Assembly: GCA_003344405.1 (NCBI GenBank)
Contig: NOWV01000159.1
Location: forward strand, 1 to 64,000
DNA from: Trichoplax sp. H2
Taxonomy: Eukaryota
DNA length: 64,000 nt
Reading direction: 5' to 3'
In this document: positions 1,140-58,400 of the stretch, one piece after another
How positions within the stretch are numbered: the stretch's first letter is position 1
How the letters are laid out: the number at the start of each line of letters is the position of its first letter
Notes under the pieces: generated by a model
Databases searched by the model: none
The model's input: only the letters and a program-made list of their open reading frames with translations
What the model was told of the DNA's origin: nothing
Made by a program: the position numbers and the translations under genes

Positions 1140-4100
1140 ATGGATTTATGTGATCTATCAGCAGATGAAGGATATTTTTTCCCTTTCTCTATGGATCTTA
1201 TGAGGCATAAGAGTGAGACTTCGAAGCGTATTACTGTATTAATTAATTGAAAGAAAAGAAATCGATTTTATCGTGATTGTAAATAAAGTCAAAGTATAGA
1301 AAGTGTAATACAGTCATGTGTAAAAGCTTTGAATATGCCAACTACTGTACAAATTACTGGTTCTTTTTACTCTGCTAAAACTTTAAGTATGTACTCGTAC
1401 AGTACCATTAGGGTAATATGGCTAATTATATCAATTAATTAATTAATACCAGTAAATTACCCGTTTAAATGAACTGGAATATAATCTACACAAAGCAATA
1501 AATTAAAAGAAATTTACAACTAGATTATCTTAATATACGGTATACGGTTCCTACCTAGATAGGTAGATTGGTATCACAATTGGTATTTTGCTCATACGGT
1601 ATAATGCTCAAATTCTCTCCAGTATTAGCGCGAGACATTTGAACACTTGGATCAAGTGTATTAGACATTGATATAGTATAAGAATTTGCAAGGTCCGTCC
1701 AATGCACTTAATCCGAACACTTTTTGCAGTCAATATTTAATCATTGAAAAGTACAGCAACGTTTCTTATTGATTACAACATTTTATTGCTATTTTGTAAC
1801 ATCGCTGCTAGTTTTGGAGCGATGATGAATTTGATGATTCAACGCTTAATGTCGGCTAATGGATATTATATTGCTGCTACTCGCCAATTCGCCAAATAAT
1901 TTAATAATTAATTTGAAATTCATCCGATACCAGCTAAGACTACAGCAGGTATTTATGATCATTTTCCGTCAAATATAGGAAAGGGATTTCAGCCAACAAA
2001 GAAAACGTGTTTGTGTCTGGCTTTAATACTTGGAATCTTAGGAATAATTGGAATTATCACGTTTTCCGTTTTGCATCAGAGAAAGATTGCTGTCATACCA
2101 CGGCAGGTAGAATTTGCAATTTCTTTTTCTGTTAATCTGCTTTCGAAATTTAATGCGTTCAATTGTGTAGGTGAGTAGCGTTATGTTTGAGTTTTTACCG
2201 TAAAAATGGATTCGCTAACTTAATGAGTACTGTACAGCATTGTATTTGGAATTACATCTGATGGTGTAATACTTGATGTAAGTCATAATATCTGGTATCT
2301 ATGTTGAGTGTATACGTGTACAGTACTGTACTGTACATACTGTACATGTAGGACAAGCCAATGCTGAACATTGCTGAGTTAGTAATTAAGAGTGATTAAA
2401 TGGTCACTAATGTTTTTGTCATTTCTGTAGTTTGGTGTTGTAATCGATGCCGGCTCGACGCACACTCAAGCCAATCTGTATTCATGGCCTGCTTTGAAAA
2501 TCAATTGTACTGGTGTTATTTCTCGACTAGCATCTATAAAATGCGCAGGTATAATCATATATGTTATTAGTAGCCTTGATAATTTGAGTTATGCGCTAGT
2601 CTTGTCTGCAATTTTTAAGTTCATTTTGTATGATTCTCACGTACAGGCGTTAACTAGATATATTGTTGTATCATTAATAGATGCATGTGTAGAACAGAAA
2701 ATTTATACCATTTACTTGAAACCTTGTTACAACTCTTTGCAAATATATTTACGACACGCTTACACTAACTTTGCATTCAATCTTTTACGACTACGGAATG
2801 CAGATACAGTATCGTGTCACCTAGAGTCTATTTTCGTGTTTACTAGTACCATATTGTATGCCTACAATTCCATATCAAGTTCCATCTGTAATTTATCTCT
2901 TCATTAAGCAGCAGAAGGTGATCATGGGAGCGTACTGATAGTATGAATGATGTCTCCTCTTAGGGTCCGGAATTGCGGATTATGGTAGTCATCCTGGCGA
3001 TTTAGTAATGCCGCTGTTGTCTTGCATATCAAAGGCGATAACTCCATTGGTGCCTATAGACGAGAGATCGGAAACTGAGTTATTTTTAGGCGCTACCGCT
3101 GGGATGAGGCTTCTACAGTAATTATCTCTAATAATTCTAATGTCATATGGAAACTAGTGTCTTGGATGAAAACATAATCATTGCTACAAATTATATAATT
3201 ATTTATGCTTCCTTGCGCGAAATTCGGAATTTACATTTACAGACTATGAACTATGAAAGATTGCCAAAAAAACAATTACTCTAGTAGCTACGGTATTATA
3301 GTGATAAATGCACAATATAGGGTACGATTGTACTGCTACTAGAAAGTGAAAGACAAGTTATAGGCGCTGTCAAAGTCTATAGTACGTACTGAACGATTAT
3401 CTAATGGAATATTTACCGTATATTCAATAGAGCGGTGAACAGATCGCAAGCAGAAGCAATTTTACATTCGATTAGAAACGTATTTCAGAAGCTCCCGTTT
3501 AAGACATCAAATGAAAGTGTAAAGATAATTACTGGGGAAAAGGAAGGAGCTTTTGCTTGGATTGCTATTAATTACATTACTGGTGTGATCCATTCCAGGG
3601 AGGTAGTAGATGAAAATTTATTAGTCGATTTTATTATTCGCTTTGCTATCATTGCTTTAGTAACTATGCAGTATCACGAGGCACAAAGGGGTGTAAATAC
3701 TGGCTTGAACATAGGTAAAATGATAATTTTATTATGTTTTTTAAGAGCTTTCCGGTAACCTATCTGGATACAAAAACTAACCACGAAACTTACGGAGCTT
3801 TAGATATGGGAGGAGCTTCGACGCAGATATCCTTTAGTCCTAAGTCTGCAGTTACTCTGCATCCTAAGTATGAAAATAATTTTCATTTGTTTGGAACGAA
3901 GTATAGAGTTTATTCACATAGTTTCCTGTGTTACGGCATCAATGAAATCACAAGAAGATATTTAGCAAGCTTGGCGTCTGTAAGTGTTATATGAAAGTAC
4001 TAACAGGGCTATAATATACAGGTTATTACGATAGCACGCTTATTTATTGCCATTGGCTTACACTCGGATCTCTTTGTATTTTAGAATTCTTCAAGTCTGA

Positions 4101-5163
4101 ATATGGTCGTAGATCCTTGTGCGCCGAATGGAGCAGTTTTTAATAGAACCATTTACTACTTATATAAGGCACCATGCAGCCTTGGTTTAGTCAGTCAAAC
4201 TAACTTGAATAATGAAATTATTGTTTCAGGTGTAACTAATATGCCTGTTAACATTACGTTTTACGGAGATTTTAACGCAAAAAAATGCCAAATGCAAGTC
4301 AAAAACCTCTTTAATAAAACAGAATGTGATGATTCGTGCTCATTTAATGGAGTTTTTCAACCCGCTCTCCACGGAAAATATGCTGTAAGTTGCATATGCA
4401 AGAAATAGCATAATTATATCTGGTACATTAGCTACTAAGCAGTTAATTAAATGCATAGATCTCCGATATAAGGCTTTCATTGCTAGATGATACTTTATCA
4501 ATACTTTTCAGGCATCATCTTACTTTTATTACGATGTAAAATTTTTAAACCTTACCACGACCGATGGTAATATTTCAATGACGGCTTTTAAGAACTCAGT
4601 AAAGCGCTTATGTTCACTTTCGTGGTCGCAGGTATGAAAATATAAGAATTTCTTTATTTGTCGTAATTCTACTCATATTCTTACTATTGGTTTCTTACAG
4701 ATTGTATATATAACATCGGCGAATAAATCGGAACTCCCTGTGTACTGTTTTAGGTTACATTATATACTTACTATTCTCCAGTATGGGTACGGATTCAATC
4801 AGAGAATGTGGAAACAGTTACTATTTCTTAAAAAAGTAATTATATGATTCAACTATAAAGTGAATACTTTATTTACCTGCGCTTGATCTCAGATTATTAA
4901 GAAGACACGCTACATTTTAATTTTAATAGGTTAACGGCTCTGATTTAAGCTGGCCAATGGGATATATGCTCGATAGAACCAACTATATCCCACAAAAAGC
5001 TACCTACTTCACTTCTGAATTTGGAGGGTCTGGCTTTATAATTGCCCTTTTGCTGTGCATTTTACTTATTCTTCTTGGAATAAGTTTTGTTATATTTGTG
5101 TTATCTATTAAGAATACGCCACGAAGACGTTATAACTTACTGAGTTCTTATGGATCAATTTAG
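1140..5163 (+). CDS. Ectonucleoside triphosphate diphosphohydrolase (CD39/GDA1 family, two-TM NTPDase1/2/3/8-like), multi-exon
   Basis: Exons carry all apyrase conserved regions: DAGSTHT (~2446), LGATAGMRLL (~3086), ITGEKEGAFAWIAINY (~3530), GALDMGGASTQI (~3794), SWPMGYML (~4948). N-terminal TM in exon 1979-2106 and C-terminal TM near 5035-5105. First exon 1140-1212 is tentative but phase-compatible with the acceptor at 1978. Confidence 0.93.
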
Positions 5164-5731
5164 TATTTTAGAACTATATAACCTAGATTTATGCTGTAGA
5201 TTTCCTAAAAGTATGATTACTAATGGATGGACTGATGTTTCGTCCTTTCTTTATCGTTTTGCAATTCTTATGATGGCGCTAGCGATAATGTACATTGCAA
5301 TAATGATGCTAATGTAGTGATAAAAATCGTTTGTATAAATAGTTTAAATATGTTTGATGACTTTGAAATCATGCCTTTTAAGTTTTATTGTAGCAAGATA
5401 GATTTACTTTGTCTGTTGGCTTCTAGTACATTTTATTATTTATGATCTACTATGACAAGTATCAACGCTCTATTCTGACACATTCCTGTAGCTGCATACT
5501 ATACAATGCATAGCTACTATCTGAAAATAATTACTATGCTGAAAATGACTTCATTAAAACTAAATACCTCTTCTCATGTTGTGTGCATATTCTGAGACAT
5601 TCAGTATATAAATACGTGTATATGTTGGTACATAGTATGATGATGTGTCATATAGCGAATGGTCCAGTATGCAATAATTCATAATATTAAAAAAGGAATG
5701 ACAGTAGAGAGATGTGTGCCACATGCTGGTG

Positions 5732-6043
5732 CTAGGGACTACCAATAAGAAGGAGGTGGGACAGGAAACGGCCTTCAGAACAAAATAATGTGGAGGTTTA
5801 TCACTTTTTTGATCATTCTGCTGTACCGTACCAATGAAACCGTATACCATACAGCATAAAACCAACTTAGCAGGCTAATAGCGGCTAATTTGGATATTAA
5901 TCAAAGACAGTATAGTTCACCGTTGAAGACGTGTGATACGGTTGAAATGGCCAGTAAAATAATTAATTAATCAGCCTTCACGTTATTATTATAGTAAACG
6001 GCCGTTTCCTGTCTTATTCCGTCTCTTTCTTTTTAGTAGTCCT
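5732..6043. mobile_element. Palindromic MITE / non-autonomous DNA transposon, hAT-like
   Basis: Long imperfect terminal inverted repeats (e.g. GACAGGAAACGGCC 5760-5773 vs GGCCGTTTCCTGTC 6000-6013), termini TAGGGACTAC...GTAGTCCT, and an exact 8-bp direct repeat TGCTGGTG at 5724-5731 and 6044-6051. A related sequence occurs at 63910-64000. Confidence 0.75.
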
Positions 6044-7862
6044 TGCTGGTGTACAGAACTGTGGTTATCATTGAGATATACAAGCGCAGTGTCTACAGTA
6101 TAATGATAATCACATCCTAAATTCATACCTGGGAATATTTCTTAGGCCAGATTTCGAAGTAAAAGATTGGTATATCACTGAACGCAAGTGAATAGTAGGG
6201 TACACTTGACGCTTATTGATATTATGATTCACGCATGCATACAAGTATCAGACAGATGCAATCATAGTTCAGTTATTGTAGTGTACTGTGATATAACTAG
6301 ATTAATTGTTGTGTGATAATAACGAGCGCTGATTTAATACGATAATATCTGATCGGTGTTTTTTATTAACTTCCATGGTGTCAGAGGTTAAATTGCTAGC
6401 ATGACAGTCACCGAGTAAGCCAGCTTGACTTTTTTGCAACTTTGTGCATGCTGAACCGGCCTACTATACTGTACATTATACATGCATCGATGGTAAAAAG
6501 AGACTGTGTACGTACAGAGATCTAAAGTTATAGACGATACACTGTAGGAGTCCCGCTGAGTACTCTACCGCTACTGTGAAGTTTACTGTACTGCCGCATT
6601 GCTGCGAATAGTGTAAAGTGGAAGTAAATAGCGGCTTACTGCGTCGCAATGTGAATGTAACATAGACGAGTGTACAATGAACTGCTACAATAATTCGATG
6701 TGAGTTATATCGGTTAAAGACAATCAGTTACTCATACAAATACGCCTATAAATAAATACCATATTTTAAGCGTACAATAAATATTAGGCACTGCCGGCAA
6801 CACGGCAAATTACATTGCTCGTCTTTTTCAAAGGCCAGGTAGGAAATGATTAACGTCATATTTTGCTAATAATCGTATTCGAGAAAGTTTGTAGTTGGAT
6901 TATGCTAAATATGATCTCCAAGATTACGTTTTTACCACCGTTTTGTATTAACATTAAGAGATAATTTTAAAGTCTCTTAAATCGATTACAGATACTAACC
7001 GTATTGAAGGTGAATATTAGCAGATCATAGATTTCAAAGCTATTATATACGCGTATTCAGCCATTTTCGTTTAAGTAACTAGGAACGAGATAGTGCCCTC
7101 GTATCAGATTTTATAGTTAACGAATGCCATTCGAAATTTTTTTACATCTTTTACTACAAAATATGCAGTATTATATATTTTCGCTATTAATATATTTAAT
7201 TCCCATGAAATCTTACTAAGTTGCCATATTATTGTCAGATATCAATACACTGTTGTACGTGTATTTACAATTTTCTATTTATACTGTGGATAACATACAA
7301 TGAATAACAGATACGAGTATAGCACACATTTTAATTATCGAGCGCTCCTGATACCATAGTTTATTCATTATCATAAGCAGAGGCAAGGTTGCAATGCGTG
7401 AAAGCAAGGGCTACTTTCTAATCAATCATAAAAATCGCGATAACTCTTGGCATCAGGAGTTCTGGCACGCAATGGAGTACAATAGCAAGAATTACGTAGT
7501 AAAACCAAGGATTAAACATTTAGAGTTTTATAGGTTATACCAATTCATTTATGATATTAGAGTATATGATACAATATAGTACAGGAGTTCATCTTTATAT
7601 TGAGCACATGCAACGATAAAAATTGGGATGGTTACAGCTATACCTATTTAACATTATATATAGATGTATCTTTGAAAGCCAAGATGACCATACCGTATAT
7701 ATCGTTAACAGCTAACTTTAAATTAATTACATGTAATCGAGATTAGGCCTGAATAATAACAATGGACGATAAATTATCAAGGAAACTTTTAAGTAATACT
7801 CTTATGTCAAACAGACAAATGAGATCTTAGTTAGGGAGGAATTATCTCGCTATTACCTGACT

Positions 7863-10565: not shown

Positions 10566-10918
10566 ACCAATTTAACGCTCGTACATTTACGTTATGCTGT
10601 AGTAGTTTATAGATAGTTAAATTAAATTGAAAGGAATCGTTGTCACTTTGCTTTACACGGCGATTGAGATTAGAAACTAGAAATTACAGTGAAGACCGAA
10701 TGCACACTCAGTAGTACGGTACTATGTTAGTACAGATACTTCACAGTACTGTACTGTACATTCAGTACAATATCTTACCGGTACGCTCTGTTACAGTGTA
10801 CAGTACAGTACAGTACAGTACAGTACTACTGTACACTGTACTATACAGTACAGTACAGTACTGTATGTTCATGCCACTTTCGTTTACTAGTTGTGTTGTA
10901 GTCAGTACGAAAATTGTA
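10566..10918. promoter_or_regulatory. Putative bidirectional promoter (RMND5/FNTA) with (TACAG)n array
   Basis: Head-to-head ATGs about 350 nt apart, with dense ACAGT/ACTGT pentamer repeats at ~10710-10865. Confidence 0.65.
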
Positions 10919-13388
10919 ATGGCGTCCTTCGGCGATTCCTCATCATCAGAAAATGTGAAAGAGAGCACTTTATGTCGATATAATCCCGAATGGGCAGATG
11001 TCACTCCTATCGAACAAAATGACGGCTCTGTGTCCGTTGTGACCATCGCATACTCAGAGCAGTGTAAGTAAGTACTGCACTTAGTTCTCAACGCGGTTCT
11101 CAAACGCTAAACTTTCCAGTACTGTACTGTGTTCAGCGAAAGTGCGCTGTTCGGAGATTATTACTCCACAGTACAGTACTTGCAACGCTCCACGAAGTAA
11201 GAAAAGAAAAGTGTTATAGAATGGTACTTTACTTCAATTTCAATTTTATGATATTACGACCCAGTTTCTTGAGATTTTAAGCACACAAGAGATGCAAGTA
11301 GCTACGAATACTATACAAATCTAACACAAATTTGAACCTAACTCAAATTGTCGTAGGATTAAAGTTAAAAACTGTTAATTTAATAAAATAAAAGCTTATA
11401 AAGGACACATGCGGAGATCGTGGAACTGTATCTGCTGATTGCGGTGTCGAACTTTATGGATTTGAATGATCCGGATTCCTTAATGCAAAATTTTTCGAAA
11501 GTTCGCACTCACTACAGCTGTGCAGGCATTACTTGCTGGACACAGAGCATGAAGAATAGCTAGTTACGCAAGTGTTAGACAAAGAAGCTTCTACATCAGA
11601 GCAATAAACTTTTATTGCAACATGCATGATTTGTTCGTTGTTTTACTCTTCCCTTTTTGTCCGGAATTAAAAATAATAATATAATATTCTGGTCATAGTT
11701 ATGAGTTGCCAATTGCCTTTCGTTTTTCTTGATAACTTGATTATGAAATGAACATCAGTTAAAGACGTTTTTGATTACTTCCGCGCTGTTATGAAGAGTC
11801 AAGAAGTCAGTGAACGCGCCTTTAAACTAACATCCGATGCAATTGCAATATGTCCGGCAAACTACACAGTATGGTAAGATTCAATTCTTAGTCGTTCATA
11901 ATCTGTAGTGTCATATCTGGTTAACCTTAATTAAGCATTGTACTGTAGTTCTAGCGCATAACTGCGAGGATCTGCAGTGTTTAAAGTGTATCTATCTATC
12001 CATATCTACTGTATATTACATACTGTAAATAGATTTTACGTGTGTGCACATTACAGTGCATACAGCTGTACTGTATACTATGTATCGTTTCAGGGCTACC
12101 TTATCTGAGATATTTTGGCTAACTGCCACTAGCTTGACTCTTTCATTTTGTGCGCTTGTTGCTTGACCAAATCATAGTATAAATTTCAATTTTCAAACTC
12201 AAAATTTTTCACTTTTAGGTATCTTTCCTACAATTATAACATATTCATTTTTTGGGATTTTGTTAGGCAATATCGTCGAAGGTTATTAAAAGAACTGAAG
12301 AAGAATCTATGGGATGAATTGGAAATGATTGGAAATTTCATTATCGAAGAACCTAAAAATTATCAGGTGTGGTACCACCGTCGAGTACTAGTGGAGTGGT
12401 TACATGATGCAACTCAGGAGCTAAGTTTTACCACAGAAGTCTTACAAGATGATCCAAAAAATTTTCATGCTTGGCAGCATCGTCAATGGTGTTTAAACAC
12501 TTTTAATTTGTGGAATGATAATGGCCATAATGAATTAGCTTATACTTCTGATCGAATTAAAGAAGATGTTAGAAACAACTCTGCTTGGAATCAGCGCTAC
12601 TATGTTATTAATAACACAATTGGTTTCAATGATGATGTTCTCAATAACGAAATAAGGTTATATTACCATAGGTCAACAAACAGTATTAAACATATCAAAA
12701 CTAATAAAGGATTACGTTGCAATAAAATTGCAGACAGAAGCTAAAATAATCTTATTTCTTACTGATTTTAGTTTTACTTGGCATTGGATATCGAAAGCGC
12801 CTAACAATGAAAGTTCCTGGAATTATTTGAGAGGGTGCATGCTTTTTTATTGAAGTATAATATAATCTTGTTATTCGTCATAGCCTCCCATGAAATTTCT
12901 ATGTTATAATCTAATTGCATCATTTTTATAAGATTATATTTAAGAGACTTCAAAAATGTTATCTTTCTCAATAGAGTCCTTAATGGACGCATGAAGGCCT
13001 ACCTCCATCCTAATCTGAAATCTGGTTGTACTTATTTACTGTCTCAAGGTTTAGAATCATCTCATTTATTAGCATTCTTATTTGATTTATACGAAGAAGA
13101 ATTAGACGATGTACATGGCAGTACCGAAAACAATTACAAGATGAAGTTGCTTGCTAAATCAAATGAGGCATGTGAATTTCTCTATCCGAGTTTGATCAAA
13201 TTTTGAATTGTCATAGTTGCAATCTTCGATAAATTTAAACGTAAAGATTGCGAATAAAAGTGTCTACTATAATCTTTTAGATATGTGATCGTTTAGCTGA
13301 TGAGATTGATCCTATTAGAAAGAAATACTGGAAGTATATGAAGCGACGATTGATCAACAAATTTGATCAAAGCGACTCTTTAAACTAA
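10919..13388 (+). CDS. FNTA: Protein farnesyltransferase/geranylgeranyltransferase type-1 subunit alpha, multi-exon
   Basis: [84 protein letters not shown] and DPIRKKYW (prenyltransferase alpha repeats). Confidence 0.96.
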
Positions 13389-18299: not shown

Positions 18300-18803
18300 A
18301 GCGACATTTCCAAGAAATACAGTACTGTATAAAGTACGTACAGTCTAGTACAGTACAGTACTGTACTAGTTAACTCCACTCACGTCTGTACGTACAGTAC
18401 TGTACAGTATTGTACCACTGTACACTGTACTGTACAGTACAGTATATAAATTACATAGGCATTGCTGGGTACTGTACAGTACAGTCCTGAGTACTGTGTA
18501 TTGTGCTCTTTGCCTCAGATATCAGAATTAGATGTGAGAAAGGTTCTGTTCAGTGTACAGTACAGTACAGTAAGTACAGTAAGCACTGTAAAATAACTGG
18601 CATACTGTACTGTACAGTGTACAGTACAGTAAGTCTAAACCATACTAATTAGAATTGTACAGTACAACATTAGTGTCAAAAACGGGTTTATCGAAGTCTA
18701 TCCAGCGAGTTCGTTTTGAAGTGTTTATTAATTAAGCGATTTCTTTAAATTCTTTACTGTTAAATCGGTTTGCTGTAAGAGGTTAAGCTGATCTTGTAGT
18801 AAA
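18300..18803. promoter_or_regulatory. Putative bidirectional promoter (ARID5/PYROXD2) with (TACAG)n arrays
   Basis: Head-to-head starts about 500 nt apart, with dense TACAGTAC/GTACTGTA clusters at ~18318-18665. Confidence 0.6.
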
Positions 18804-23905: not shown

Positions 23906-24276
23906 CATCAATCAGCTTAACGTATCGCATACTCTTTATTGATTTTTGCATGGAAATAAGCTGATAAACTTCCATATGGAAGAATTTATTTTCGAAATAC
24001 AAACGCAATCAATAAAGTATTGACGGTGTTATATATAGTTCTTTAATATTAAAACTATCTGTCAAGAATGGTACTGATAGCCACAAACTGCACCTGTTTG
24101 TAATGCCTTCATTAAGATAATAAACAAGACATTAATCAATATAGCCTGTAGTTATCTAAAGAAGTTTAAACCTTGTCTACGAATAAGTTCGTCGTTTGTC
24201 GAAATCAACGTAGACACTAAATCGCAAAGTTTGCTACAAGCGAAATATGACCAGGTTAATAGTATAGTTAACAGGG

Positions 24277-27851
<3,575 letters not shown>

Positions 27852-30800
27852 TTACGAAAATTAAGGGCGAATGATCTCGTGTAAACCAAGAATTAAAATT
27901 ATTGTTACGAATATCTTCCCACTGTAAACTCTTGTCTGCAGTATATACAGTAGCTTCTGTACTCCTGCACAGCAGCTACTGCTCGTACTGACAATCCACT
28001 CATAGTACAAAGTTATACAGTACTGTATCTCGATGCAATTCACTACTTACTGTACTGTACAGTGCTTAGTAAAAGCGCATACAGTACACTGTACTGTACA
28101 GTACAGCGGGATTAACTTCGGTGGCACTAAGGAAAATAAACCATGTACTGTACTGTAGGCTACATTAAGCCCAAAGACCAAAGTAGATAAAAGCTTCGAT
28201 GTACAGTAGACGTAGCCCAATAACTCAGGGATGTAAACCTGGCTTTTATTTCTATAGATTTGTTCTAATTTGTACAGTATTCGTAAATTTTTGACGAAGG
28301 ATAGCGTACTGTACAGTACAGTATATACTATAAGACTGTTATGTTCGTGGTAATCGGTAGTACTGTACAGTAGGTTTAATTGAGAATCGCTTATTAATCA
28401 ATCAGAATCGTGCATTTATACATTTCCGAAATTACTTTATATATGGTACAATTAATGTGTGTTTTAACACGTTTAAGTAGCAATATCTATATTTAATAGA
28501 ATAGAATACACACTGAAATTATAGCAAACCTATTAATGGAAGTAACTTCACAATCCAAGTACTGTACTGTACTGTAGTACAGTACAGTACAGTACTCTAC
28601 AACAAAGACCACTATTGAAGGGGCGTGGCGAGCCCTCTAAAATGTTTGAAGAAATGTACTGTACAGTACAGTACTTTAAATTTGGCTCAAATTCCATGCA
28701 GACAGATCTGTGCAACCATGAGCAATTAGCTCTTGATATATTTTATTACTTTTTACCGCAGTATTGAATAATTATATTTCTTTAAAGTTTCTAATGCAAA
28801 CGATCAGTCGCTGTTACATGCACGGTCACTCCAACCATTTTACAAGTCACGTTGTAATACCGGTCTACAGTACAGTATACTGTACCTACTTACCTACTGT
28901 CAATATTGCGGTATAAACTAGGGATACAGTACGCCGTCAAAATGAGTTTTTATTTAGCTTGTTAAGAGGATACACAATGTGCATTGTGCATTGCACACAG
29001 ATAAAAAGAATTATTAACATCTAAATAATTTTATGTAGAGACACGGCGCAATACGTATCTCCTAGGTAAATCCAACGAGCTATAAAGTATACCACATTAT
29101 GAGCAAGAAATAGGATACTCTGCACTTAATGATGCATGTTATACGCATCACTGTACAGTACATGCTGTTGTATTACCAAGAATCCAGTGTAACGACGTTA
29201 ATAATATCTACATTTATTTGCTAAGAGCATTCAGAAATTAATAAAATTTAAAATTTAATATATTATACGGAATTTTAGTATGTGATTAGTAGATACTATA
29301 TCACGTATACATCCAATAAACAATGGGATTGTATAGAGCACTGACCATCACAAATTCGACAATCAAAATTTATAATCCTGCGGATAATCTAGATGCGTAC
29401 ACTAGCTTAACAACTGCAGAAACTCATATATGGTATAGCAATTACCATACTCCTGTCGCAAATAATTATATTAATCTTATAATAAATTAACAGTAACATG
29501 AGATGCTGCACAATCGAAAGTACGCTAATGAATTGTGGCCTAAATTTGTGCATATAGAGCAGAATAATAGTAACAATACTTACGATTTATCGTAATATTT
29601 TGCTATTTCTGTAGTCGTTTCTTATTTACTCCTATGAAAATTATATTCTTAATTCCTCTGCCGCTAACATCATAGCAATCTAACTGAGAATCACTCCAAG
29701 CCACTGATAAAATCATACTATCGATAGTGCACTTGTTCTCAACTATTTGCTAGTACATCATAAACACCCGCAATTTTAATCACTTATTTTAAACTGCTAT
29801 TACTATGCGAAATAAGTACCAAAAAAGAACTGCACGTATACGAAGTACTGTATAACCTTTTATAAAGTGTAACCGAGATCAAGAATCTGAGACTTTGAGC
29901 TTTCCTTTAGCCTACTCATTGGAAGTACATGCCAAGCGCGATATCCTACACACGTTAACGAGACGTAAGAACTGTGGCAATAATCAGCTCTAGTACGAAC
30001 ATAACTTTAATACCATATCCTAATGCACGTGAACATTTGTAGCATGTGATCTTAATCTAGTACAGTACAGTAGATAAGATGTAGATAAGCCGTAAATAGT
30101 AAATAGTATTGTACTGTACGATATCTAGGATTCCCCACGTTCTATGGCGCGTACACTACTGTACAGTACAAGGTAACAAGCAGTAGTTTACAGGACGGGC
30201 GATGTTATGACATAAAGATCACTTTGTGGTACTGTATACGACGTACTGTATCATTTATACGAAGGTAGAGAATATAAGCAACACAATCTGTACTCGCGAA
30301 ACTCGGATAAAGCAATTAATATTCTACAGTATATTACTACCTAGAAATCAATCAATAACAGTAGTGAATAGGACTTTACGTGATAAGTTAAAAGTGATTA
30401 TAGCTCCTTCTTCTATCGTAAAGTGATGTCAAATGATGCCACTTTCACGAATTATGTTAATATGTCAAAAGTCGTACCTAATTATGAACACAGGTGAAAA
30501 CAAAATCAAAATAGAAGAGACCTTGGCGCACGCGAGAAATAATTTAAATGGAAGAAGAAAAAATAAAAAAATTGTTGTAATACATGTAAAATCTATTATA
30601 TATTTTATACAATAACGATATATGCCCGGTCGCCAACAAGATCGATTTTATATTGAAATAATGATTCAAAGGTTTTTAAGGTAATAGCCATTAGCCACAG
30701 AGGTATTAAAGTAATAGCTGAGTTTAATATAGTGAATGCTTCGTATGATTGGTGATTTACTTACCCTTAAGCTTACTGCGGTCGCTTTTATAGTTTTATA

Positions 30801-33538: not shown

Positions 33539-33633
33539 CTGTAATTTATAGTTGGCATTGTCCAAGTTTTTACACACGAGACAATCGTGTGTAAAACTTT
33601 GAATACTGTACGTATGCCAACTTTAAATTACAG
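33539..33633. repeat. ~95-nt inverted repeat / hairpin upstream of HSPA9
   Basis: CTGTAATTTATAGTTGGCAT pairs with ATGCCAACTTTAAATTACAG, and the inner AAGTTTTTACACACGA pairs with TCGTGTGTAAAACTT around a GACAA loop. Confidence 0.85.
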
Positions 33634-34508
33634 CTTCTCAGTACAGTACTGTACTGTACAGTACAATACTTGAACTAATATGGTACTACTGTACTGTACA
33701 CTACAGTAGTACTGTACAGTACAGTATAAGGTGATCTTGTTACAGTATCTGCTATTAAATGATGCAATATTGCCCAGCCTAACAGAGAGTCCGAAGTACA
33801 GTACAGTACTGTACAGTGTACAGTACTGTAAATGAAAATGAGCTAAGAAATAGTACTGTACGGTACTGTACAGTACAGAGCGATGTTTTGGTCTACAGTA
33901 CAGTACTGTACATGGTAACGGTAACTTACTGTACAGTACTGTAGGTAAAGTAACTGACAGTTAACTTGAGTATCATCAGCACGTGCCAACTTTTAAAAAC
34001 AGTTAGAAATTAAAAATCAAAAATTTTAATCAATGCGCAGCTATGACACTGTAGCACTAGTACCAGTATCAGTCTCAGCATTAATGTACGGTAATTGTAC
34101 TGTACTATACTAACTGATAGATTTCATACTGGTACTACAGTACAGTATGCATGTGCGTACGGTCGCTAGCTGGAATTTCCCAACCTTGAACAGACTGTGT
34201 CTTTTGCCTTTGCTAATAACCATTCCAGCTTCTTGGTTGGTGCGTTGTTCACACAGCTGAAAGGGAACGCAGATACGTTTTGAAGTTAGTAATATCAGAA
34301 ACAGTGTACTTTTCTTCGAGTCTGTAGTCCATGTTGAAGTTTTCTTATTAACAAAGCTTGTGCTTTTCTCTTTCAAAGCAGTTCAAGATTTAGTGTTAAA
34401 TCTGTTTGGATACGAAACAAGTGGGATACTAGTCACATTGCAACAGAATATTTTTCTATTTTACGCGTGTTATCTGGAGCAGTATTTCTTTCCGGGCGTA
34501 ATACGTAT

Positions 34509-38720
<4,212 letters not shown>

Positions 38721-41961: not shown

Positions 41962-46910
<4,949 letters not shown>

Positions 46911-47425
46911 TTTCGAATGATGTTATAATCAGCATTGACGTTGAGTATAATTTTCAATTTCAAAGGTTCTCCAAAAATGCAACAGAATGCTACCGTTGCA
47001 CTCACTAGGGTAAATCGTTCGTGATACTGTACTGTACTGTACACTACTGTACTGTACACTACTGTACTGTAAACCTGCTGTTCAAATGCGAATGCAACGC
47101 AACTATCAATGTACTGTACTGTACAGTACTAGTGTACAGTACGTTGACAAAATGAGGCCGAATGTACTGTGACTGTACACTGTAAATCTCATTCTACTGT
47201 ACAGTACTGTACATTCCAGTGCTACCGTTATTTGACTTAATAAATTTTGACCAGAGATCGGCACCGTTTGCAGGCATACAGTACCTTAATAACAGTACAG
47301 TATTTTTAAGGACCATTTCTAATAACTGACTTCATGCTAGTAACTGGGAAGGTTCTTTTCGACGTTCGATTCCGAACTTAACTCCTAAAATCGTTAATGA
47401 TTAGAAACGTAGCTTTTTATCAGAA
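46911..47425. promoter_or_regulatory. Putative bidirectional promoter (DDX41/ACTR1) with (CTGTA)n arrays
   Basis: Head-to-head genes about 500 nt apart, with TACTGTAC repeats at ~47025-47215. Confidence 0.6.
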
Positions 47426-50333
<2,908 letters not shown>

Positions 50334-50425: not shown

Positions 50426-51835
50426 TGCTGTAGCGGTATCTTTATTCGTTGCTATAAATTTTATAGGGCCAAAGGATTCGACTTAAATTATATTCTAATA
50501 AATCTTTTTTTCAATCTGTTTCCATTCGCTCTAAAATGTATTGTGTAGCAAATCTTAATTGATATTTGTATTATTTACGAACTGTAATTCGTAAATTGTA
50601 ACTCATTAAATTGTTCTTACATCACATTTTGTAGTATTGCTTACTTCTCTAAGTTACACCCACAGCTACCTTCATTATTCCTGTCATTTTAACTACAGTG
50701 TAACGTTGGTGATTCAATGGAACGTATGTAAGGTAGACACAAGGGACTATACTGTAATAGTGAGAAATATGCATTTGTTAACGAGGTCTATGAACAAAAT
50801 AAGGCCGTTACAGTGATCATGTAAAATTAAAATGCATACCTGTCATGTATCTTGTATAGTTATTTTTTCATGTTAGAACGTCTGTTCGAATTTCGAATTA
50901 TGAATTTAAGTTAAAATATATGGCTATTGTTAAAGTTGCATTCGTATGAGTTTATATCAATACAACATTTACGTATATCGTCGCAATTCAAATTTATTCG
51001 TGTTTTAAGTAATAGCAAAGACAATAAAACGCTAGATAGCTAAATAGCGTTTGTGTAGATTCACTACAGCTTTTATTCGGTCCCCAAGGGGAGTGCTTTC
51101 CGATTAACATATTTTAGGACTTAAGACCTGATAACAGTGAAAATACTGTGAAANNNNNNNNNNNNNNNNNNNNTGCTGTAGCGGTATCTTTATTCGTTGC
51201 TATAAATTTTATAGGGCCAAAGGATTCGACTTAAATTATATTCTAATAAATCTTTTTTTCAATCTGTTTCCATTCGCTCTAAAATGTATTGTGTAGCAAA
51301 TCTTAATTGATATTTGTATTGCTTACTTCTCTAAGTTACACCCACAGCTACCTTCATTATTCCTGTCATTTTAACTACAGTGTAACGTTGGTGATTCAAT
51401 GGAACGTATGTAAGGTAGACACAAGGGACTATACTGTAATAGTGAGAAATATGCATTTGTTAACGAGGTCTATGAACAAAATAAGGCCGTTACAGTGATC
51501 ATGTAAAATTAAAATGCATACCTGTCATGTATCTTGTATAGTTATTTTTTCATGTTAGAACGTCTGTTCGAATTTCGAATTATGAATTTAAGTTAAAATA
51601 TATGGCTATTGTTAAAGTTGCATTCGTATGAGTTTATATCAATACAACATTTACGTATATCGTCGCAATTCAAATTTATTCGTGTTTTAAGTAATAGCAA
51701 AGACAATAAAACGCTAGATAGCTAAATAGCGTTTGTGTAGATTCACTACAGCTTTTATTCGGTCCCCAAGGGGAGTGCTTTCCGATTAACATATTTTAGG
51801 ACTTAAGACCTGATAACAGTGAAAATACTGTGAAA
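50426..51835. repeat. Direct duplication (50426-51153 and 51174-51835) flanking a 20-N gap; probable unmerged haplotypes
   Basis: The two copies read identically except for a ~66-bp indel (~50573-50638, present only in copy 1), and both abut the N run at 51154-51173. Confidence 0.9.
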
Positions 51836-52427: not shown

Positions 52428-55400
52428 TCAATTGGATCTTTGAAATGTATACTTGACGCGTTGTAAACTTTTTCGAAATCTTTGCGAGCTACGTTGGAGA
52501 GCCGACCGGGGAAAATTATTGTGATTCTGTGCAACAAGCTCCTGCAAGTCCTGATCTTGAAATTCAACCATTCGTTTTGAAATCAGTCTCTGTAAATCCA
52601 TATCAGCAGGGAAAGTATAAGGATTCGCCTTAAAAATACGGACTTGATTTATAATTCTAGCAATCGTCCTACAATCAAAGTCAAACGTAAATATTAATTC
52701 GCATTATCTTAAAATTGCTATATCTCACGACATATGTTTTATGCACGCATAATAATGATACTCATAGAATTATCTTAAAAAGGTAAACTACAACCCTACA
52801 ACCATCATTATGTCCCGTCATCAGAGCCTGCTCCAATGATGATCACTGGACTGTACTAATACAATATGACACCTACCTCATCTTAGACCATTTATACATT
52901 CCATTTGGCATTAAAAAGCCATCACGCTCATGCTGTTGAATCGCGGATAAAAATAAAGAAACTGGCGGTAGTGTCGGCTCGGTTACATTTACCGAATCCA
53001 GAATTACTGTTAATGTGTCTGTTTGCAACTTCAGCTGGAATTATAATAAATAATGTTATAATTAATACCTTGCGATAACATAAAGGATGGTGTACCTAAC
53101 AGTCATTTCGTAAATTCCTATTCGCTATAAAAGGTACCTTATAGCTAGATAAGTGTTCCATAGTATTTAAAGCCTTTGCCGGCAAGCTTCTCCAAACCTA
53201 CCAGAGATCAATAAAATTCGTTTAGTAGAGTCAATATATTTTTCAACACTCGTATTACCAGTGTTTGTACTGCATTGAGCGAAGTCATTAGATTTTCAAA
53301 TATTATCAACAGTGATATCTTATTCAAGTTTCGGTCAGCAAACAGTAGCATAGTAGCATCGATACTTGTAGATATCGATTAACGCGTTGACAACCGTAGT
53401 TATGCGTACCGGTAACTGTCGAACGACAATCATTTCTAAGCCTTCAACAACTTGTAAAAAAGTGGCATAATTTCGTTTCTCGTAGCACCATTTCGCGATT
53501 TTAATAAATTCCGTTAATAACGTTAACTGCATCTAGATAGTGAACGGTGGTTGAACACAAGATGTCAAAAAATGCATCACTTATTAGTGGATATAATTTC
53601 AAATATTAAGAAATTTGTACTGTCACAAATTGCAAAAGATTATAATCCACAATTTCTTACTTTCGCGGAAGGGCAACCGCAAAGTTCTCCTGCGATCCAT
53701 ATTGATGCGCCTTGAGCTCTTTCAAGCAATATTTCTAAGTATTCACTAGGCTCCAGTTTGGCGATATTCTTCAATGAGGTCTTTTCTCTCATACTTCGCC
53801 TCTCCGATGTCATGTAATTAAAAGATTCAAGTTCGTGTTTAGGCTTGCCTATTGATGCTCGAAAATTTACGACTGAACCAAAACGGTTGAATTTTCCAAC
53901 GCTGGAGTTTAAGTCTGACGCTTCGGTACCCAAGAAATCGATCGGATGCATACCAAGAAATAATTCCTAAGTTAAGTTGTATTCGTAAACGAGGATGTTA
54001 TTAGTTTACAGATTTATTATTCTTTCTATAATACAATTACAATTATTAGCTCCCAGATCAACAAGGAAAATAACAGTTTAAATAAAAATAGATTTTCACA
54101 CCTGTTGCATAAGGGTTAGCTGTTTTGCAATTTGAGGAGTAGAGTAATTCAATAACGAATCATGAAAGTTTTTCCCACGATCCATTGCCGTAATTGAAAT
54201 AGCGCTAGGAACATCATCGAAGCACTTAAGTTCTCGCATCCCCATAGCAGTACTATTTGAGCGCCTTACTGACATTCTCCAATTCTGGACGTCAAATATT
54301 TGTCATTGGCTTAAAATTGATACGTATTCTCATCAATCTATCACACTGAAAAACTTACCGATGGAGTGCTACCTAACGTTCTGTTACTTGAAGAGTTGGT
54401 TTCGATATCTAAATAACAAAAACAAATGTTATAATCATTAGTAGTAGTAACTATTTCTAACATGATTTATTTCTGTTTTGCTAACCGTCTTCTTCCTTAT
54501 CTATCTGTTGTTCGCGTATAATAGTATTTTCCGTTTGATCTCTTTCATTCGTACTTAACTTTTTGTCATTGCATAAGTATAACACACGCACTCCCATTCC
54601 AGTTGCGTCAATCGGAATTACCTTTCGAGACATTTGATCAAAAAGATATAGTTACTATGAATCCTTAACCACAGAATCGGTGCTCGCAAAACACTGTTAT
54701 GTAGTACTCACAGTATTCTCCATGAAATCTATCAAGTTGTTCTCTAATTTTTGATTCGTACGAAAATCTTTTGCGTAATATCCCTGCATTAAGGCGAATC
54801 TTAGAAAAGACAAAGTACTGAATATTACAATAACCAGAGCATTACCTCTATCCATTCATACAATATGTCTAGTGAACGAAACTGAACTTGAACTTGTTGG
54901 TAGGTTTGGGTACCACCAGTTTCGATGACGCAAGTTGCAGAGGTATAAACATTAGTAATAAACTGATATAATTGTAGAGGTGTCATAATATATCGGAAGG
55001 TTAACAAGAAATCGTTGACATAATCTTGACCTTTCGCGTCACTAGAAAGTAAAAAGTATTTTTATTCCTTAAAATATCTTTCTTCACCTCATAGCGAGCT
55101 ATTAAATTAGATTGAGTTAGCATTGGCTTTATATTTCCATACCGCGCATACAAGAAAGATAATAAACCCCTTCGTGTACCAGTCTGAAGAACTGGCGTGG
55201 AGCCTGTAGAGCTCGACAACATATTTGGCGAAATCATGTCCCAGCTTCCGCCAAAAATAAGCGTAGGATTCTTTGGTGTAACTCTGAACGATAGTGGCTG
55301 ATTTCCATCGCTATATGAGATAATTGCCGATGACTTAAGTTCCTACTATTGAAGAAATTAAGTAACATTATCTTCTACTAACCAGTTTGCCAAAGAAAAC

Positions 55401-58400
55401 AGCAAGGAAGAATCTAAACCCCAACGTTCGGCATCAATTTCCTGCTCAAAAATAATTTGCTGTGTTATACTATCTCCTTTCTCAACAATTGAAATATGCA
55501 AAGTCTTCGAAAAGATGATATTAGTGACGAACCTCCAGTTGTTGCTTTGCAGCAACCAAGAAAGACATTCTTTTTTCCATATCAATCAGGTTTTTTTTAG
55601 TCCTTGCTAGCCTGCCTTTAGTTGGTGAAACTAATTCATAGTAAATATTGAGCAAAAAACAAGTTAATCTTCTTTCTTATCAACTAATTTTTAATGTAGT
55701 AATCTCTAGTTGTATATGGATATATACTTCTTTGCTTTCCGTCAACATCTTGCAATCTAGAAAGATATTTTAAAGTTTTAACTTTCATCATTTTTTCAAC
55801 CTTAATTTGTTGGTCAACATCCTACATTAATTAAATCAGAAATTTTAGTATCAACATCACTACTTGATACTTTCAAGTCATGATAAGATCTCGAGTATAT
55901 GCTATATGTACGTACAATTAATTTTTGCACGATATTTCTCTTTAGTTCCTCCAAAGTTTTGTTTTTTGACGAATCGACCTGTGAGTATTGTAATTAGCCA
56001 GAGAATACTACTTTATGCAACTGAATCTTAGATGAATCTGTCTTAGCTAGATCCTAAATAAGCCTGTCTCTATTTAATTATCGCCAACATATAGATAGAG
56101 GTAGTTAAGGACAGTAACGAACATAAAGCTACCATTGCAGGATATGAAGAATTTAAAGGTATAATATGTATTTTAGCTTTTTACCACTATAAATACATAT
56201 GATATTAATACCCAATATAGTTATCTCTCATGTCTATTAAGATCTTCTCAAAAATTTAAAATACGTTTTGAGATTTTCCAGGTTCTGTACATTTATGATA
56301 CAACCCTAAATTATATCTGTATATTTCTCCTATTGCCTAGAGCTCATAACTATTAAGAACAATAGCAAACTAAAGCATCATATAACAACTACTATTGTAG
56401 TGCTATAATATCTAGGTGCTCTATAATCAAAGCCCCCTAATAACTGCCGGTGCTTAAATTACCACCTAAAAAAATGTCTATCTCATCATCGAAGCAATTT
56501 TAAAATCTTATACCGCATAAAGATTTGATTTCAAAGATTGATCACGTTCGATGAAAGTCGACAAGCGTCACCATCAGTAAAAATGGTTAAGCGTAGCAGA
56601 CAGGTAGACTGTACAATAAGGTTAGACTCGAAAGAACAATCGTCGCCAATTTTAAGTACAGTAGCATAGTACATTATATGCCTCAATAAATTAAGAAAGC
56701 TAACCATATATACTTACTATTCGCCGATTGTAATCCAGAATTGGCTGTATATCATTATGCAATTCTTCTTTGCTCATGTATATTGAGCTATTACGTCTCA
56801 ATTTTTTCTTCAATATGGCAATACCGGAGACGTCTGAACCAGTATCGATATCGTCGTTTGCTTTTCCTCGCGATTTAGTATCAGTAGGTTGAATGGATTC
56901 AACCGGTTTAAGTAGAGGATCATCTACAGTCACTTTATCTGGTAATTTTCTCGTTATGTGAACTAAATTATCAAAATTATCGTTTGGTCGATCGATATTA
57001 ACTTCTCTAAATGGAGTGACAGCTGATTTTCCGACGACTACGGAGCTAGTAGATAGAGATGGTACGTAGTTACCGACAGCGGCGTAATCATTAGATGGCT
57101 TGTGAATAATTTTGGCTTGTCTGTAAAATCATTAGCATATGTTTATATCAATAAAGTTTCAAAAAAGGATTCGATCACATACAAGGAAATAGTACGCAGC
57201 AATTTCATCGTACCCCATTGGTTTCATTCTAGTATTTGAAGTTTTTCCTCTATCGATGACACGATACATCTCATTAAGAAGTTCTTCATCCCAATATAGA
57301 TCACAGTACTGATCAGCCACAGCTTCTTTGAAAGCGGATCGATTCATTCCAGTTAATGACATTATATATTCAGCTATGACAATAGAACAAATTCACATAC
57401 CGATAAGTATAGAGTGATATTTACGTTAGCATAATGAATCGTATACAACATAGAATATAGGATTTAAGATACGCAATATAGTAGTACAGCAAATTTTACC
57501 CATAGCCAGTTCTTCGATGCCATTTTCAAGATACCCATCATACGCGAATTCTTGACGGATCATCGACGCCAATCTTGATAGCATTTCACGTTCTTCCAAT
57601 GATGAGGGATCACTCTATAAAGTATCAGAAAATAAATAAATTTTACATAAATTGTGGATTTAATAATAAGAATTTTAATTTCAGGTTACCAATTCTAATA
57701 CAGAAATGGTTGGACTCCTATTTTCCTGAAAATGCGTTGATGGCATAAAATTATTAGGTTTACTGTTGTCCATATCGCCGTACATCTCATGAGACATAGT
57801 GATTGGGGAATTGTTGTCGCTAATATGGCGAAGTTTTGATGATAGTCGTGAGTTTCTTTGATTATACCTAGCTGAGCCACTGCGATTTTCGCGCTCGGAT
57901 TGTACAGGGTTACTGTCTTCCAATTGTCTTTGTTCATTACTATTTAATGAATTTGATTCAATGGAATGCACTTGCTTTGTGTTCTCTAGTCTTACATCAA
58001 GCGATCTGTTTGCAGGCGAGGGAGTGTCTTTCCCCTTTACTAAGTACGCCCGGTATTTACTCTCCTCATGAAAATATGGCGTAGGATCGTTTGCTTGCTT
58101 TTTAATTGAACTTTCCATTTGTCGATTCATAGAAAGATCATCATGATCAATTTTCTCATCTACTTCACCTAACAACCTTCGAGATATTTCTATTTCATCA
58201 ATTGATACATCCTGTGTATCGTTCTTATTGCTACGTTCAGTTTCGGATGAGTGAGCCGGTTTATTAATACCCGATCTTTTACTTATTTCGATTTCATTGC
58301 GGTCGTAAGCTGCAAAAAACGAATTTTCGGCACGAGAAACTGGGAAATTGTCGTTCGGGCTATTTACTACTGTAGGATAACTTTGCTGATCTTGCTCACG

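What the first reader, a model, noticed from the sequence alone, without database searches (positions are those of the whole stretch)
5724..6051. Fully palindromic hAT-like MITE whose arms diverged mainly toward G-U pairs: candidate hairpin/small-RNA locus
Seen: pairing extends from the termini almost to the centre (~5875; innermost CCAACTTAGC...GCTAATTTGG), giving a ~310-nt fold-back, with an 8-bp TSD. In the three best-aligned segments (5735-5755/6023-6043, 5756-5773/6000-6017, 5784-5798/5974-5988) my hand count of arm differences is 8 G-U versus 1 C-A and 1 U-U on the + strand. Neutral decay should give G-U and A-C about equally. Established: 8-bp TSD and YAGGG ends typify hAT elements; G-U-rich long hairpins serve as Dicer substrates (hpRNA/endo-siRNA). 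Inference: a transposon-derived hairpin retained as + strand RNA, ~570 nt downstream of the NTPDase stop and so possibly in its 3'UTR. The sample is small.
Basis: partly seen in the sequence, partly recalled or inferred. Interest (0 to 1): 0.75.

Follow-up and report, generated by a model that had tools for sequence, protein, structure and literature searches.

The report
Decayed fold-back transposon relic in Trichoplax
This is a single old copy of a small palindromic DNA transposon sitting behind a placozoan NTPDase gene, and its two arms have decayed evenly, so nothing in the sequence says it has been kept as a hairpin RNA.

Summary
The structure is real. A 312-nt element (5732-6043) is flanked by a perfect 8-bp direct repeat, TGCTGGTG. 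Its two halves are reverse complements: 106 Watson-Crick columns of 136 aligned. Either strand folds far better than shuffles: + -106.8 kcal/mol, z -8.5; - -101.6 kcal/mol, z -7.2.

The claimed G-U excess does not hold. Arm against arm over the full length gives 7 G.U versus 8 A.C on the + strand, or 8:9, in all 12 parameter sets. The element has 155 G+T and 157 A+C. The MFE folds contain 12 (+) and 11 (-) G.U pairs. The 5.2 kcal/mol strand difference lies inside a null with sd 9.6. That clustering is not significant once the post hoc split is allowed for (p = 0.38).

The host is Trichoplax: NTPDase exons are 77/77 and 101/102 identical to a Trichoplax sp. H2 protein. There is no second copy in the window, no Rfam match and no transposase.

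Verdict: an ordinary, solitary, decaying MITE, with hAT membership plausible but unproven. Expression could not be tested.

The parts
5724..5731 (.). Left copy of the 8-bp target-site duplication, TGCTGGTG
   Evidence: Read directly. Chance rate of an 8/8 repeat is 5.9e-5 per position and spacing.
6044..6051 (.). Right copy of the 8-bp target-site duplication, TGCTGGTG
   Evidence: Read directly. Identical 8/8 to 5724-5731.
5732..6043 (.). The 312-nt palindromic non-autonomous element (MITE-like), present as a single copy in the window
   Evidence: RNA MFE is -106.8 (+) and -101.6 (-) kcal/mol, z -8.5 and -7.2. Arm-to-arm alignment has 106 WC, 15 transitions and 15 transversions. No other copy in 64 kb. 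No Pfam hit for the 104-aa ORF 5560-5874 on the - strand.
5732..5877 (.). Left arm. The terminus reads C-TAGGGACTACC.
5878..6043 (.). Right arm, about 20 nt longer than the left through indels. The terminus reads ...AGTAGTCCT.
5735..5801 (.). Left side of the well-preserved outer stem. It pairs with 5972-6043 (55 arm-to-arm pairs in the MFE of either strand). Most G.U(+) mismatches lie here.
   Evidence: Outer stem alone folds at -70.3 (+) vs -62.1 (-) kcal/mol.
5972..6043 (.). Right side of the outer stem, with a 5-nt bulge at 6014-6018
5760..5773 (.). Perfect 14-bp core, GACAGGAAACGGCC, complementary to 6000-6013
   Evidence: I2, 100% complementary.
5862..5893 (.). Innermost stem-loop at the centre of symmetry (CCAACTTAGC ... 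GCTAATTTGG, 9/10 complementary)
4930..5163 (+). Last coding exon and stop codon (TAG, 5161-5163) of the NTPDase (GDA1/CD39) gene upstream of the element
   Evidence: 77/77 identical to residues 533-609, the C-terminus, of P0121, an NTPDase of Trichoplax sp. H2. Earlier exons hit PF01150.
5553..5691 (+). Two ATTAAA hexamers (5553, 5686) on the + strand between the stop codon and the element. The next AATAAA hexamers come after the element, at 6751 and 6776.
   Evidence: Motif positions only; actual use as poly(A) signals was not tested.

Best explanation
This is a solitary relic of a small non-autonomous cut-and-paste DNA transposon (a fold-back MITE). It lies in the spacer between two convergent genes of a Trichoplax genome, 560 nt past the NTPDase stop codon.

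Shown:
- It has an exact 8-bp target-site duplication, the footprint of a staggered 8-bp cut by a transposase.
- Its two halves are reverse complements from the ends to the centre.
- It encodes nothing recognisable.
- It has no partner copy or transposase in the 64-kb window.

Inferred:
- It was mobilised in trans, most likely by a hAT-type transposase. This rests on the 8-bp duplication, a TAGGG left end, and hAT remnants reported in the Trichoplax genome.
- It has since sat immobile and accumulated substitutions and indels in both arms without regard to RNA pairing on either strand. Arm-to-arm K2P distance is about 0.26.

If read-through or a long 3'UTR of the NTPDase gene includes it, the RNA would fold into a long imperfect hairpin. 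The opposite strand would fold almost equally well. The sequence carries no sign that either hairpin has been maintained.
For: - TSD is 8/8, with a chance rate of 5.9e-5 per register.
- Fold-back: 106 WC of 136 aligned columns; z -8.5 and -7.2, with 0 of 100 shuffles as stable on either strand.
- Symmetric decay: G.U(+) vs A.C(+) is 7:8 in 9 and 8:9 in 3 of 12 alignment settings.
- Transitions equal transversions, 15:15.
- Composition is G 61, C 59, A 98, T 94.
- G.U pairs in the MFE number 12 on + and 11 on -.
- The strand energy difference of -5.2 kcal/mol compares with a null of mean -2.8, sd 9.6. Of 300 randomisations, 64% are at least as large in size.
- An intact TSD is compatible with this age: P about 0.12 for 16 unchanged sites.
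- No Rfam family matches at gathering score in the window, or at E<=1 in 5500-6300.
- No transposase domain appears in 73 ORF translations scanned.
- The host is identified as Trichoplax. Its genome is reported to hold only inactive, degenerate TEs, including 14 hAT fragments, and very few MITEs (PMC2871265, passages read).
Against: - The outer stem taken alone does lean to the + strand. It has 6 G.U vs 1 A.C in the cleanly aligned parts, or 6 vs 3 counting two A.C in a poorly aligned stretch. It folds at -70.3 vs -62.1 kcal/mol. Fisher's test of outer against inner gives p = 0.029 with the two doubtful A.C dropped and p = 0.12 with them kept.
- No family consensus could be built, so ancestral states are unknown. 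The arms may never have been perfectly complementary.
- Transcription and small RNAs were not testable.
- hAT assignment is weak. Only one end reads TAGGG, and the TSD fits neither the Ac-type nTnnnnAn nor the Buster-type nnnTAnnn preference (PMC10368747 and PMC3517528, passages).
Confidence: 0.8

Rival explanations
1. One reading: the transposon-derived hairpin, or at least its roughly 65-bp outer stem, is retained as a + strand RNA. It would sit in the NTPDase 3'UTR or read-through transcript and be cut by Dicer into endo-siRNAs. Selection would tolerate only changes that keep pairing as G.U.
For: - The outer stem has 6-7 G.U vs 1 A.C in its cleanly aligned segments.
- The outer stem is 8.2 kcal/mol more stable on the + strand.
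- The element is 560 nt from the stop codon on the sense strand, and the canonical AATAAA hexamers lie beyond it, at 6751 and 6776.
- Trichoplax has Argonaute and five Dicer2-type Dicers but no miRNAs or Pasha, so siRNA-type processing of long hairpins is plausible there (PMC3991619, PMC3563456 and PMC2655684, passages).
- The MITE-to-hairpin-to-small-RNA route is well documented in plants (PMC9641971, passages).
Against: - The whole-element count is 7:8.
- There is no G+T excess: 155 vs 157.
- G.U pairs in the MFE are 12 vs 11.
- The strand energy difference lies inside the null.
- Clustering of G.U towards the termini is not significant after allowing for the chosen split (p = 0.38).
- The inner part leans the other way: 1 G.U vs 5 A.C, and -36.1 (+) vs -38.4 (-) kcal/mol.
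- Two ATTAAA hexamers precede the element, so the mRNA may end before it.
- Even a real sense-strand G.U bias could arise without selection from transcription-associated mutational asymmetry (PMC2927911, abstract).
- There is no Rfam match.
Confidence: 0.07
2. It is not a transposon insertion but a local inverted duplication (palindrome) formed in place, for example by template switching or hairpin-capped break repair. The flanking 8-mer would then be coincidental or a microhomology used in the event.
For: - Only one copy is seen in 64 kb.
- MITEs are reported to be very rare in Trichoplax (PMC2871265, passages).
- The terminal bases of the two arms are not cleanly complementary: there is a 3-nt offset at the left end.
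- The TSD matches neither hAT target preference.
Against: - An exact 8/8 direct repeat abuts both ends of the palindrome, which is the classic cut-and-paste footprint and is improbable by chance (5.9e-5 per register).
- In-place inverted duplication does not by itself predict a direct repeat flanking both ends.
- The left end carries the TAGGG motif typical of hAT ends (motif recalled; sequence).
Confidence: 0.06
3. It is a MITE, but of a superfamily other than hAT that also makes 8-bp duplications (P, Merlin or some Mutator-like elements; these TSD lengths are recalled, not checked here).
For: - The TSD fits neither nTnnnnAn nor nnnTAnnn (PMC10368747 and PMC3517528, passages).
- Only one terminus reads TAGGG.
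- MuDR fragments are also listed for Trichoplax (PMC2871265, Table 2 passage).
Against: - hAT is the superfamily defined by 8-bp TSDs (PMC3517528, passage).
- hAT is among the more abundant DNA-transposon remnants in Trichoplax, with 14 fragments (PMC2871265).
- The TAGGG left end fits the hAT end motif (recalled).
- A target consensus is only a preference, so one site cannot exclude it.
Confidence: 0.25

Closest known systems
hAT-derived MITEs, e.g. Mar and Vege of Drosophila willistoni (PMC3517528, passages read)
   Same: Short, AT-rich and non-coding. Flanked by 8-bp target-site duplications, with inverted termini. Assigned to hAT from TSD length and end sequence when no autonomous partner is at hand.
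   Different: Mar has 11-bp TIRs, many copies and a TSD consensus matching Buster. Here only one copy is visible, the whole element is palindromic rather than just its tips, the two termini are offset by 3 nt, and the single TSD matches neither hAT target preference.
MITE-derived miRNA/siRNA hairpin loci (plant MITE-miRNAs, PMC9641971 passages; LIRBase long inverted repeats, PMC8728187 abstract in search listing; human Made1/miR-548, recalled)
   Same: A MITE close to a gene whose co-transcription would give an imperfect hairpin of a size suitable for Dicer.
   Different: Those loci are defined by sequenced small RNAs. Here there are no expression data, no strand-specific conservation of pairing (7:8), and the host animal has no known miRNAs (PMC3563456, PMC2655684).
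Drosophila hpRNA/endo-siRNA loci processed by Dicer-2 (recalled from the 2008 Okamura and Czech papers; not read here)
   Same: A long inverted repeat predicted to fold into a hairpin of more than 100 bp. Trichoplax's five Dicers are all of the Dicer2 type (PMC3991619).
   Different: hpRNA loci have demonstrated small RNAs and targets. No target, transcript or small RNA is known for this locus.
Previously catalogued Trichoplax repeats: one MITE family of about 20 copies and five low-copy non-autonomous DNA transposons in Repbase Reports (PMC2871265, passages)
   Same: Same genome and same class of element. This copy may belong to one of them.
   Different: Supplement 2 of PMC2871265 lists only protein-homology TE fragments and holds no match to the element's 14-nt core (cells there are cut at 400 characters).

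Membership tests
[quoted passage not shown] | Short (about 50-800 bp) with no coding capacity | tested here: met
   The element is 312 nt. The only ORF overlapping it (5560-5874, - strand, 104 aa) has no Pfam hit.
[quoted passage not shown] | Terminal inverted repeats | tested here: met
   Arms are complementary from 5735/6043 inward. There is a 3-nt offset (CTA) at the left tip.
[quoted passage not shown] | Flanking target-site duplication | tested here: met
   TGCTGGTG on both sides, 8/8. Chance is 5.9e-5 per register.
[quoted passage not shown] | Multiple copies (a family) in the genome | tested here: inconclusive
   No second copy in the 64-kb window. No eukaryotic genome collection was available. 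The bacterial/archaeal contig scan gave 0.
hAT superfamily | 8-bp target-site duplication | tested here: met
   The criterion is from PMC3517528 (passage).
hAT superfamily | Short TIRs beginning with the YARNG-type motif at both ends (motif recalled) | tested here: inconclusive
   The left end is C+TAGGGACTACC. The right end read inward is AGGACTACT, or AAGGACTAC if the boundary is shifted by 1. The motif is present at one end only.
hAT superfamily | Target preference nTnnnnAn (Ac family) or nnnTAnnn (Buster family) | tested here: not met
   TGCTGGTG has G at position 2, T at position 7 and TG at positions 4-5. The shifted reading GCTGGTG(C/T) does not fit either (PMC10368747, PMC3517528). This is a statistical preference, so a single site is weak evidence.
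hAT superfamily | An autonomous partner with matching ends that encodes a hAT transposase | not testable with these tools
   None in the window: 0 transposase domains in 73 ORF translations. The rest of the genome was not available.
hpRNA / endo-siRNA hairpin locus | Long, stable intramolecular hairpin | tested here: met
   -106.8 kcal/mol, z -8.5 on the + strand. The - strand does nearly as well: -101.6 kcal/mol, z -7.2.
hpRNA / endo-siRNA hairpin locus | Strand-specific preservation of pairing (G.U over A.C, or compensatory changes) | tested here: not met
   7 G.U vs 8 A.C. G.U pairs in the MFE are 12 vs 11. The strand energy difference is within the null. Covariation was not testable with one copy.
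hpRNA / endo-siRNA hairpin locus | Transcription of the hairpin and Dicer-sized small RNAs mapping to its arms | not testable with these tools
Known RNA families (Rfam 15), including miRNA precursors | Match to a curated covariance model | tested here: not met
   0 matches at gathering score in the whole window. 0 matches at E<=1 in 5500-6300.

The most novel reading that the evidence does not exclude
The outer stem of about 65 bp (5735-5801 paired with 5972-6043) may be maintained as a sense-strand hairpin in an extended NTPDase 3'UTR. This is where 6 of the 7 G.U(+) mismatches sit and where the + strand is 8 kcal/mol more stable. It would then be a natural substrate for one of the five Dicer2-type enzymes of Trichoplax, an animal with no miRNAs whose endogenous Dicer substrates were not identified in the papers read here. 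The interior of the element would decay freely.
Probability: 0.05. Interest if true: 0.55.

Novelty: new member of a known kind. Interest (0 to 1): 0.13.

Why it matters
As it stands it matters little. It is one more decayed MITE, of modest note only because the Trichoplax genome is reported to be very poor in transposons and MITEs (PMC2871265). The check also has a methodological point. A G.U-versus-A.C asymmetry counted only on the best-aligned parts of a palindrome can vanish when the whole element is counted, and base composition (G+T vs A+C) gives a quick alignment-free control. If the outer stem were after all an expressed Dicer substrate, it would bear on what the expanded Dicer2-type family does in a miRNA-less animal. 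Nothing in the sequence points that way.

Tried and rejected
- Family consensus. blastn of the element plus TSDs against the window (word size 7, E<=10) found only itself and its own arm-to-arm match. All other hits were 35 nt or shorter with E>=0.059.
- Search elsewhere. A degenerate 24-nt pattern covering both terminal arms found 0 matches in genome contigs. That collection holds only bacteria and archaea, so the result says little. The phage, plasmid and E. coli collections were not searched, being irrelevant to a placozoan repeat.
- Rfam. Nothing at gathering score over 64 kb, and nothing at E<=1 over 5500-6300.
- Transposase in the window. None in 73 ORF translations.
- Other inverted repeats in the window. 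Those listed are mostly (ACAGT)n-type arrays. Four others examined (I4, I13, I15, I23) show no flanking duplication, so they could not serve as a comparison set.
- Transcription-linked skew. A link between gene orientation and G+T content was considered as a neutral source of G.U bias. With rough gene spans the pattern was inconsistent. G+T fractions ran 0.511-0.543 for the four + strand genes and 0.452-0.530 for the four - strand spans. It is kept only as a caveat.
- Organism identification. The farnesyltransferase-alpha exon gave only 44-60% identical hits. The 1037-aa ORF gave none. The NTPDase exon settled it.
- Supplement 2 of PMC2871265. It has no match to the 14-nt core and no MITE entries.
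- Structure prediction, complex prediction and the protein atlas were not used, since there is no protein to test.
Full report
WHAT IS THERE

The window reads TGCTGGTG at 5724-5731 and again at 6044-6051, and these repeats bracket a 312-nt element at 5732-6043. An 8/8 direct repeat at spacings of 300-340 nt occurs in this window at 155 of 2,610,552 position-spacing pairs, or 5.9e-5. The flanking repeat is therefore not a chance feature, even allowing about a hundred registers.

The two halves of the element are reverse complements of one another.
- The repeat finder reports arms 5736-5766/6012-6042 (31 nt, 74% complementary) and a perfect 14-bp pair at 5760-5773/6000-6013.
- A global alignment of the left arm to the reverse complement of the right arm gives 106 Watson-Crick columns, 15 transition mismatches and 15 transversion mismatches, plus a dozen or so indels.

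As RNA, the + strand folds at -106.8 kcal/mol (shuffles -65.3, sd 4.9; z -8.5; 0 of 100 as stable). The - strand folds at -101.6 kcal/mol (z -7.2; 0 of 100). In the + strand MFE, 78 of 106 pairs are arm-to-arm and 28 are local. In the - strand MFE, 104 of 111 are arm-to-arm.

THE G-U CLAIM

- Segment 1 has 2 G.U, 1 C.A and 1 U.U.
It has 2 in the register chosen by both the alignment and the MFE fold, which places the 5-nt bulge at 6014-6018.
- Segment 3 as written is off by one and gives 8 non-pairs of 15. With the correct partner range, 5973-5987, it has 2 G.U.
- The total is therefore 6-7 G.U, not 8, against 1 A.C.

Over the whole element the picture changes.
- The count is 7 G.U(+) versus 8 A.C(+) in 9 of 12 combinations of centre and scoring scheme, and 8 versus 9 in the other 3.
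- Three independent checks agree:
  - The element holds G 61, C 59, A 98 and T 94, so G+T is 155 and A+C is 157. A palindrome that decayed towards + strand G.U pairs would be G+T-rich.
  - The MFE folds contain 12 G.U pairs on the + strand and 11 on the - strand.
  - The 5.2 kcal/mol advantage of the + strand compares with a null of mean -2.8 and sd 9.6, obtained by randomly re-orienting the same 15 transition mismatches. Of 300 trials, 64% gave a difference at least as large in size.

- Ordered from the termini inward, the transitions read GU, AC, GU, GU, GU, AC, AC, GU, GU, then AC, AC, GU, AC, AC, AC.
- The outer stem alone is 8.2 kcal/mol better on the + strand (-70.3 vs -62.1). The interior is 2.3 kcal/mol better on the - strand.
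- Fisher's test of outer against inner gives p = 0.12 with all transitions. It gives p = 0.029 if two A.C in a poorly aligned stretch are dropped.
- A permutation test that allows for choosing the split point after the fact gives p = 0.38.
- The premise that neutral decay must give equal G.U and A.C holds only for strand-symmetric mutation. Transcribed regions show strand-asymmetric substitution (PMC2927911, abstract). A sense-strand excess would therefore not by itself have shown selection.

CONTEXT AND ORGANISM

ORF translations upstream on the + strand hit GDA1/CD39 (PF01150) in five exons between 2431 and 4408.
- The exon at 4085-4408 is 101/102 identical to 'Ectonucleoside triphosphate diphosphohydrolase 1 [Trichoplax sp. 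H2]' (P0121, 609 aa). The one difference falls at the splice boundary.
- The last exon, 4930-5163, is 77/77 identical to the same protein and ends at the protein's C-terminus.
- The stop codon is TAG at 5161-5163, and the left TSD begins 560 nt later.

The many (ACAGT)n-like arrays in the window fit the reported abundance of that motif in Trichoplax (PMC2871265, passages).

Downstream, a CTLH/RING gene runs on the - strand between about 8052 and 10571, so the element sits in a convergent spacer.

On the + strand, ATTAAA occurs at 5553 and 5686, before the element, and AATAAA occurs at 6751 and 6776, after it. Whether the mRNA includes the element is open.

WHAT KIND OF ELEMENT

The element meets the structural definition of a MITE: it is short and non-coding, with inverted termini and a TSD. 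Copy number could not be assessed.
- There is no second copy in 64 kb.
- No eukaryotic genome collection was available.
- A pattern scan of the bacterial/archaeal contigs found nothing, as expected.

For hAT membership the evidence is mixed.
- The 8-bp TSD is met.
- The TAGGG end motif is present only at the left end, after an extra C. The right end read inward is AGGACTAC or AAGGACTAC.
- The TSD fits neither the Ac-type nTnnnnAn preference nor the Buster-type nnnTAnnn preference (PMC10368747 and PMC3517528, passages).
- No transposase domain was found in the 73 ORF translations scanned.
- The Trichoplax genome is reported to contain 14 degenerate hAT fragments, no active TE, one MITE family of about 20 copies, and five low-copy non-autonomous DNA transposons in Repbase (PMC2871265, passages).
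- I could not check whether this copy belongs to one of those. Supplement 2 of that paper holds only protein-homology fragments and has no match to the 14-nt core (cells there are cut at 400 characters).

I therefore file it as a MITE-like relic, probably hAT-mobilised, with membership unproven.

HOW IT MOST LIKELY WORKS

Shown: the footprint of a cut-and-paste insertion with an 8-bp stagger; palindromic architecture; symmetric decay.

Inferred: mobilisation in trans by a transposase that is now lost or degenerate in this genome, followed by neutral accumulation of substitutions and indels. Arm-to-arm K2P distance is 0.26. At that divergence, an intact 16-nt pair of TSDs has a probability of about 0.12, which is unremarkable.

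If transcribed, either strand would form a long imperfect hairpin. Trichoplax has Argonaute, Drosha and five Dicer2-type Dicers but lacks Pasha and known miRNAs (PMC3563456, PMC3991619 and PMC2655684, passages). Dicing of such an RNA is therefore conceivable, but it is not indicated by anything in the sequence. Rfam has no match.

COMPARISON AND NOVELTY

The MITE-to-hairpin-to-small-RNA route is established in plants (PMC9641971, passages), and long inverted repeats are catalogued as hpRNA sources (PMC8728187, abstract in the search listing). The idea is therefore not new, and this locus lacks the evidence that defines such loci. The element is at most a new, or possibly already catalogued, member of a known kind. 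Interest is low.

The boldest reading not excluded is that the outer stem alone is a maintained sense-strand Dicer substrate. I put that at about 5%.

LEFT OPEN

- Transcription, small RNAs and A-to-I editing.
- Other copies, empty-site alleles and the autonomous partner.
- Identity with Repbase entries.

Noticed in passing
window 10737-10851, 18325-18630, 28006-28697, 33624-33928, 47108-47215 (examples): There are dense direct and inverted arrays built from ACAGT/ACTGT-type units (TACAGTACAGTAC...). They dominate the list of inverted repeats in the window. [quoted passage not shown] Their function is unknown.
   Followed up: partly
window 57681-60794, - strand: A 1037-aa uninterrupted, Ser/Thr/Asn-rich reading frame. 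It has no Pfam domain. A search of residues 560-1037 found no homologue among proteins of 570-1815 aa. It lies next to RasGEF_N-bearing exons (54825-55061, - strand), so it may be part of a larger gene.
   Followed up: partly
window 12178-12744, + strand: This farnesyltransferase-alpha exon (PPTA repeats) found no Trichoplax entry among proteins of 330-2000 aa. Its best hit is a protein labelled UNVERIFIED_CONTAM in an Acipenser sinensis record, at 54% identity. The Trichoplax model may be shorter than 330 aa or missing.
   Followed up: no
window 51154-51173: A run of 20 N, which is an assembly gap.
   Followed up: no
window 5560-5874, - strand: A 104-aa stop-to-stop frame overlaps the left arm of the element. 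It has no Pfam hit and is most likely a chance frame.
   Followed up: yes
window 24001-26000 and 25313-26758: The strongest negative GC skew in the window (-0.159) coincides with the - strand eRF1 gene (eRF1_1 and eRF1_2 hits). G+T fraction there is 0.452 on the + strand. Skew does not track gene orientation cleanly elsewhere in the window.
   Followed up: partly
window 35027-37978 (+), 42526-42783 (-), 49855-50178 (+): Other genes recognised from exon translations: HSP70 (four exons), a Helicase_C-bearing gene and an actin-family gene. The window is gene-dense with short spacers, as expected for a compact genome.
   Followed up: no
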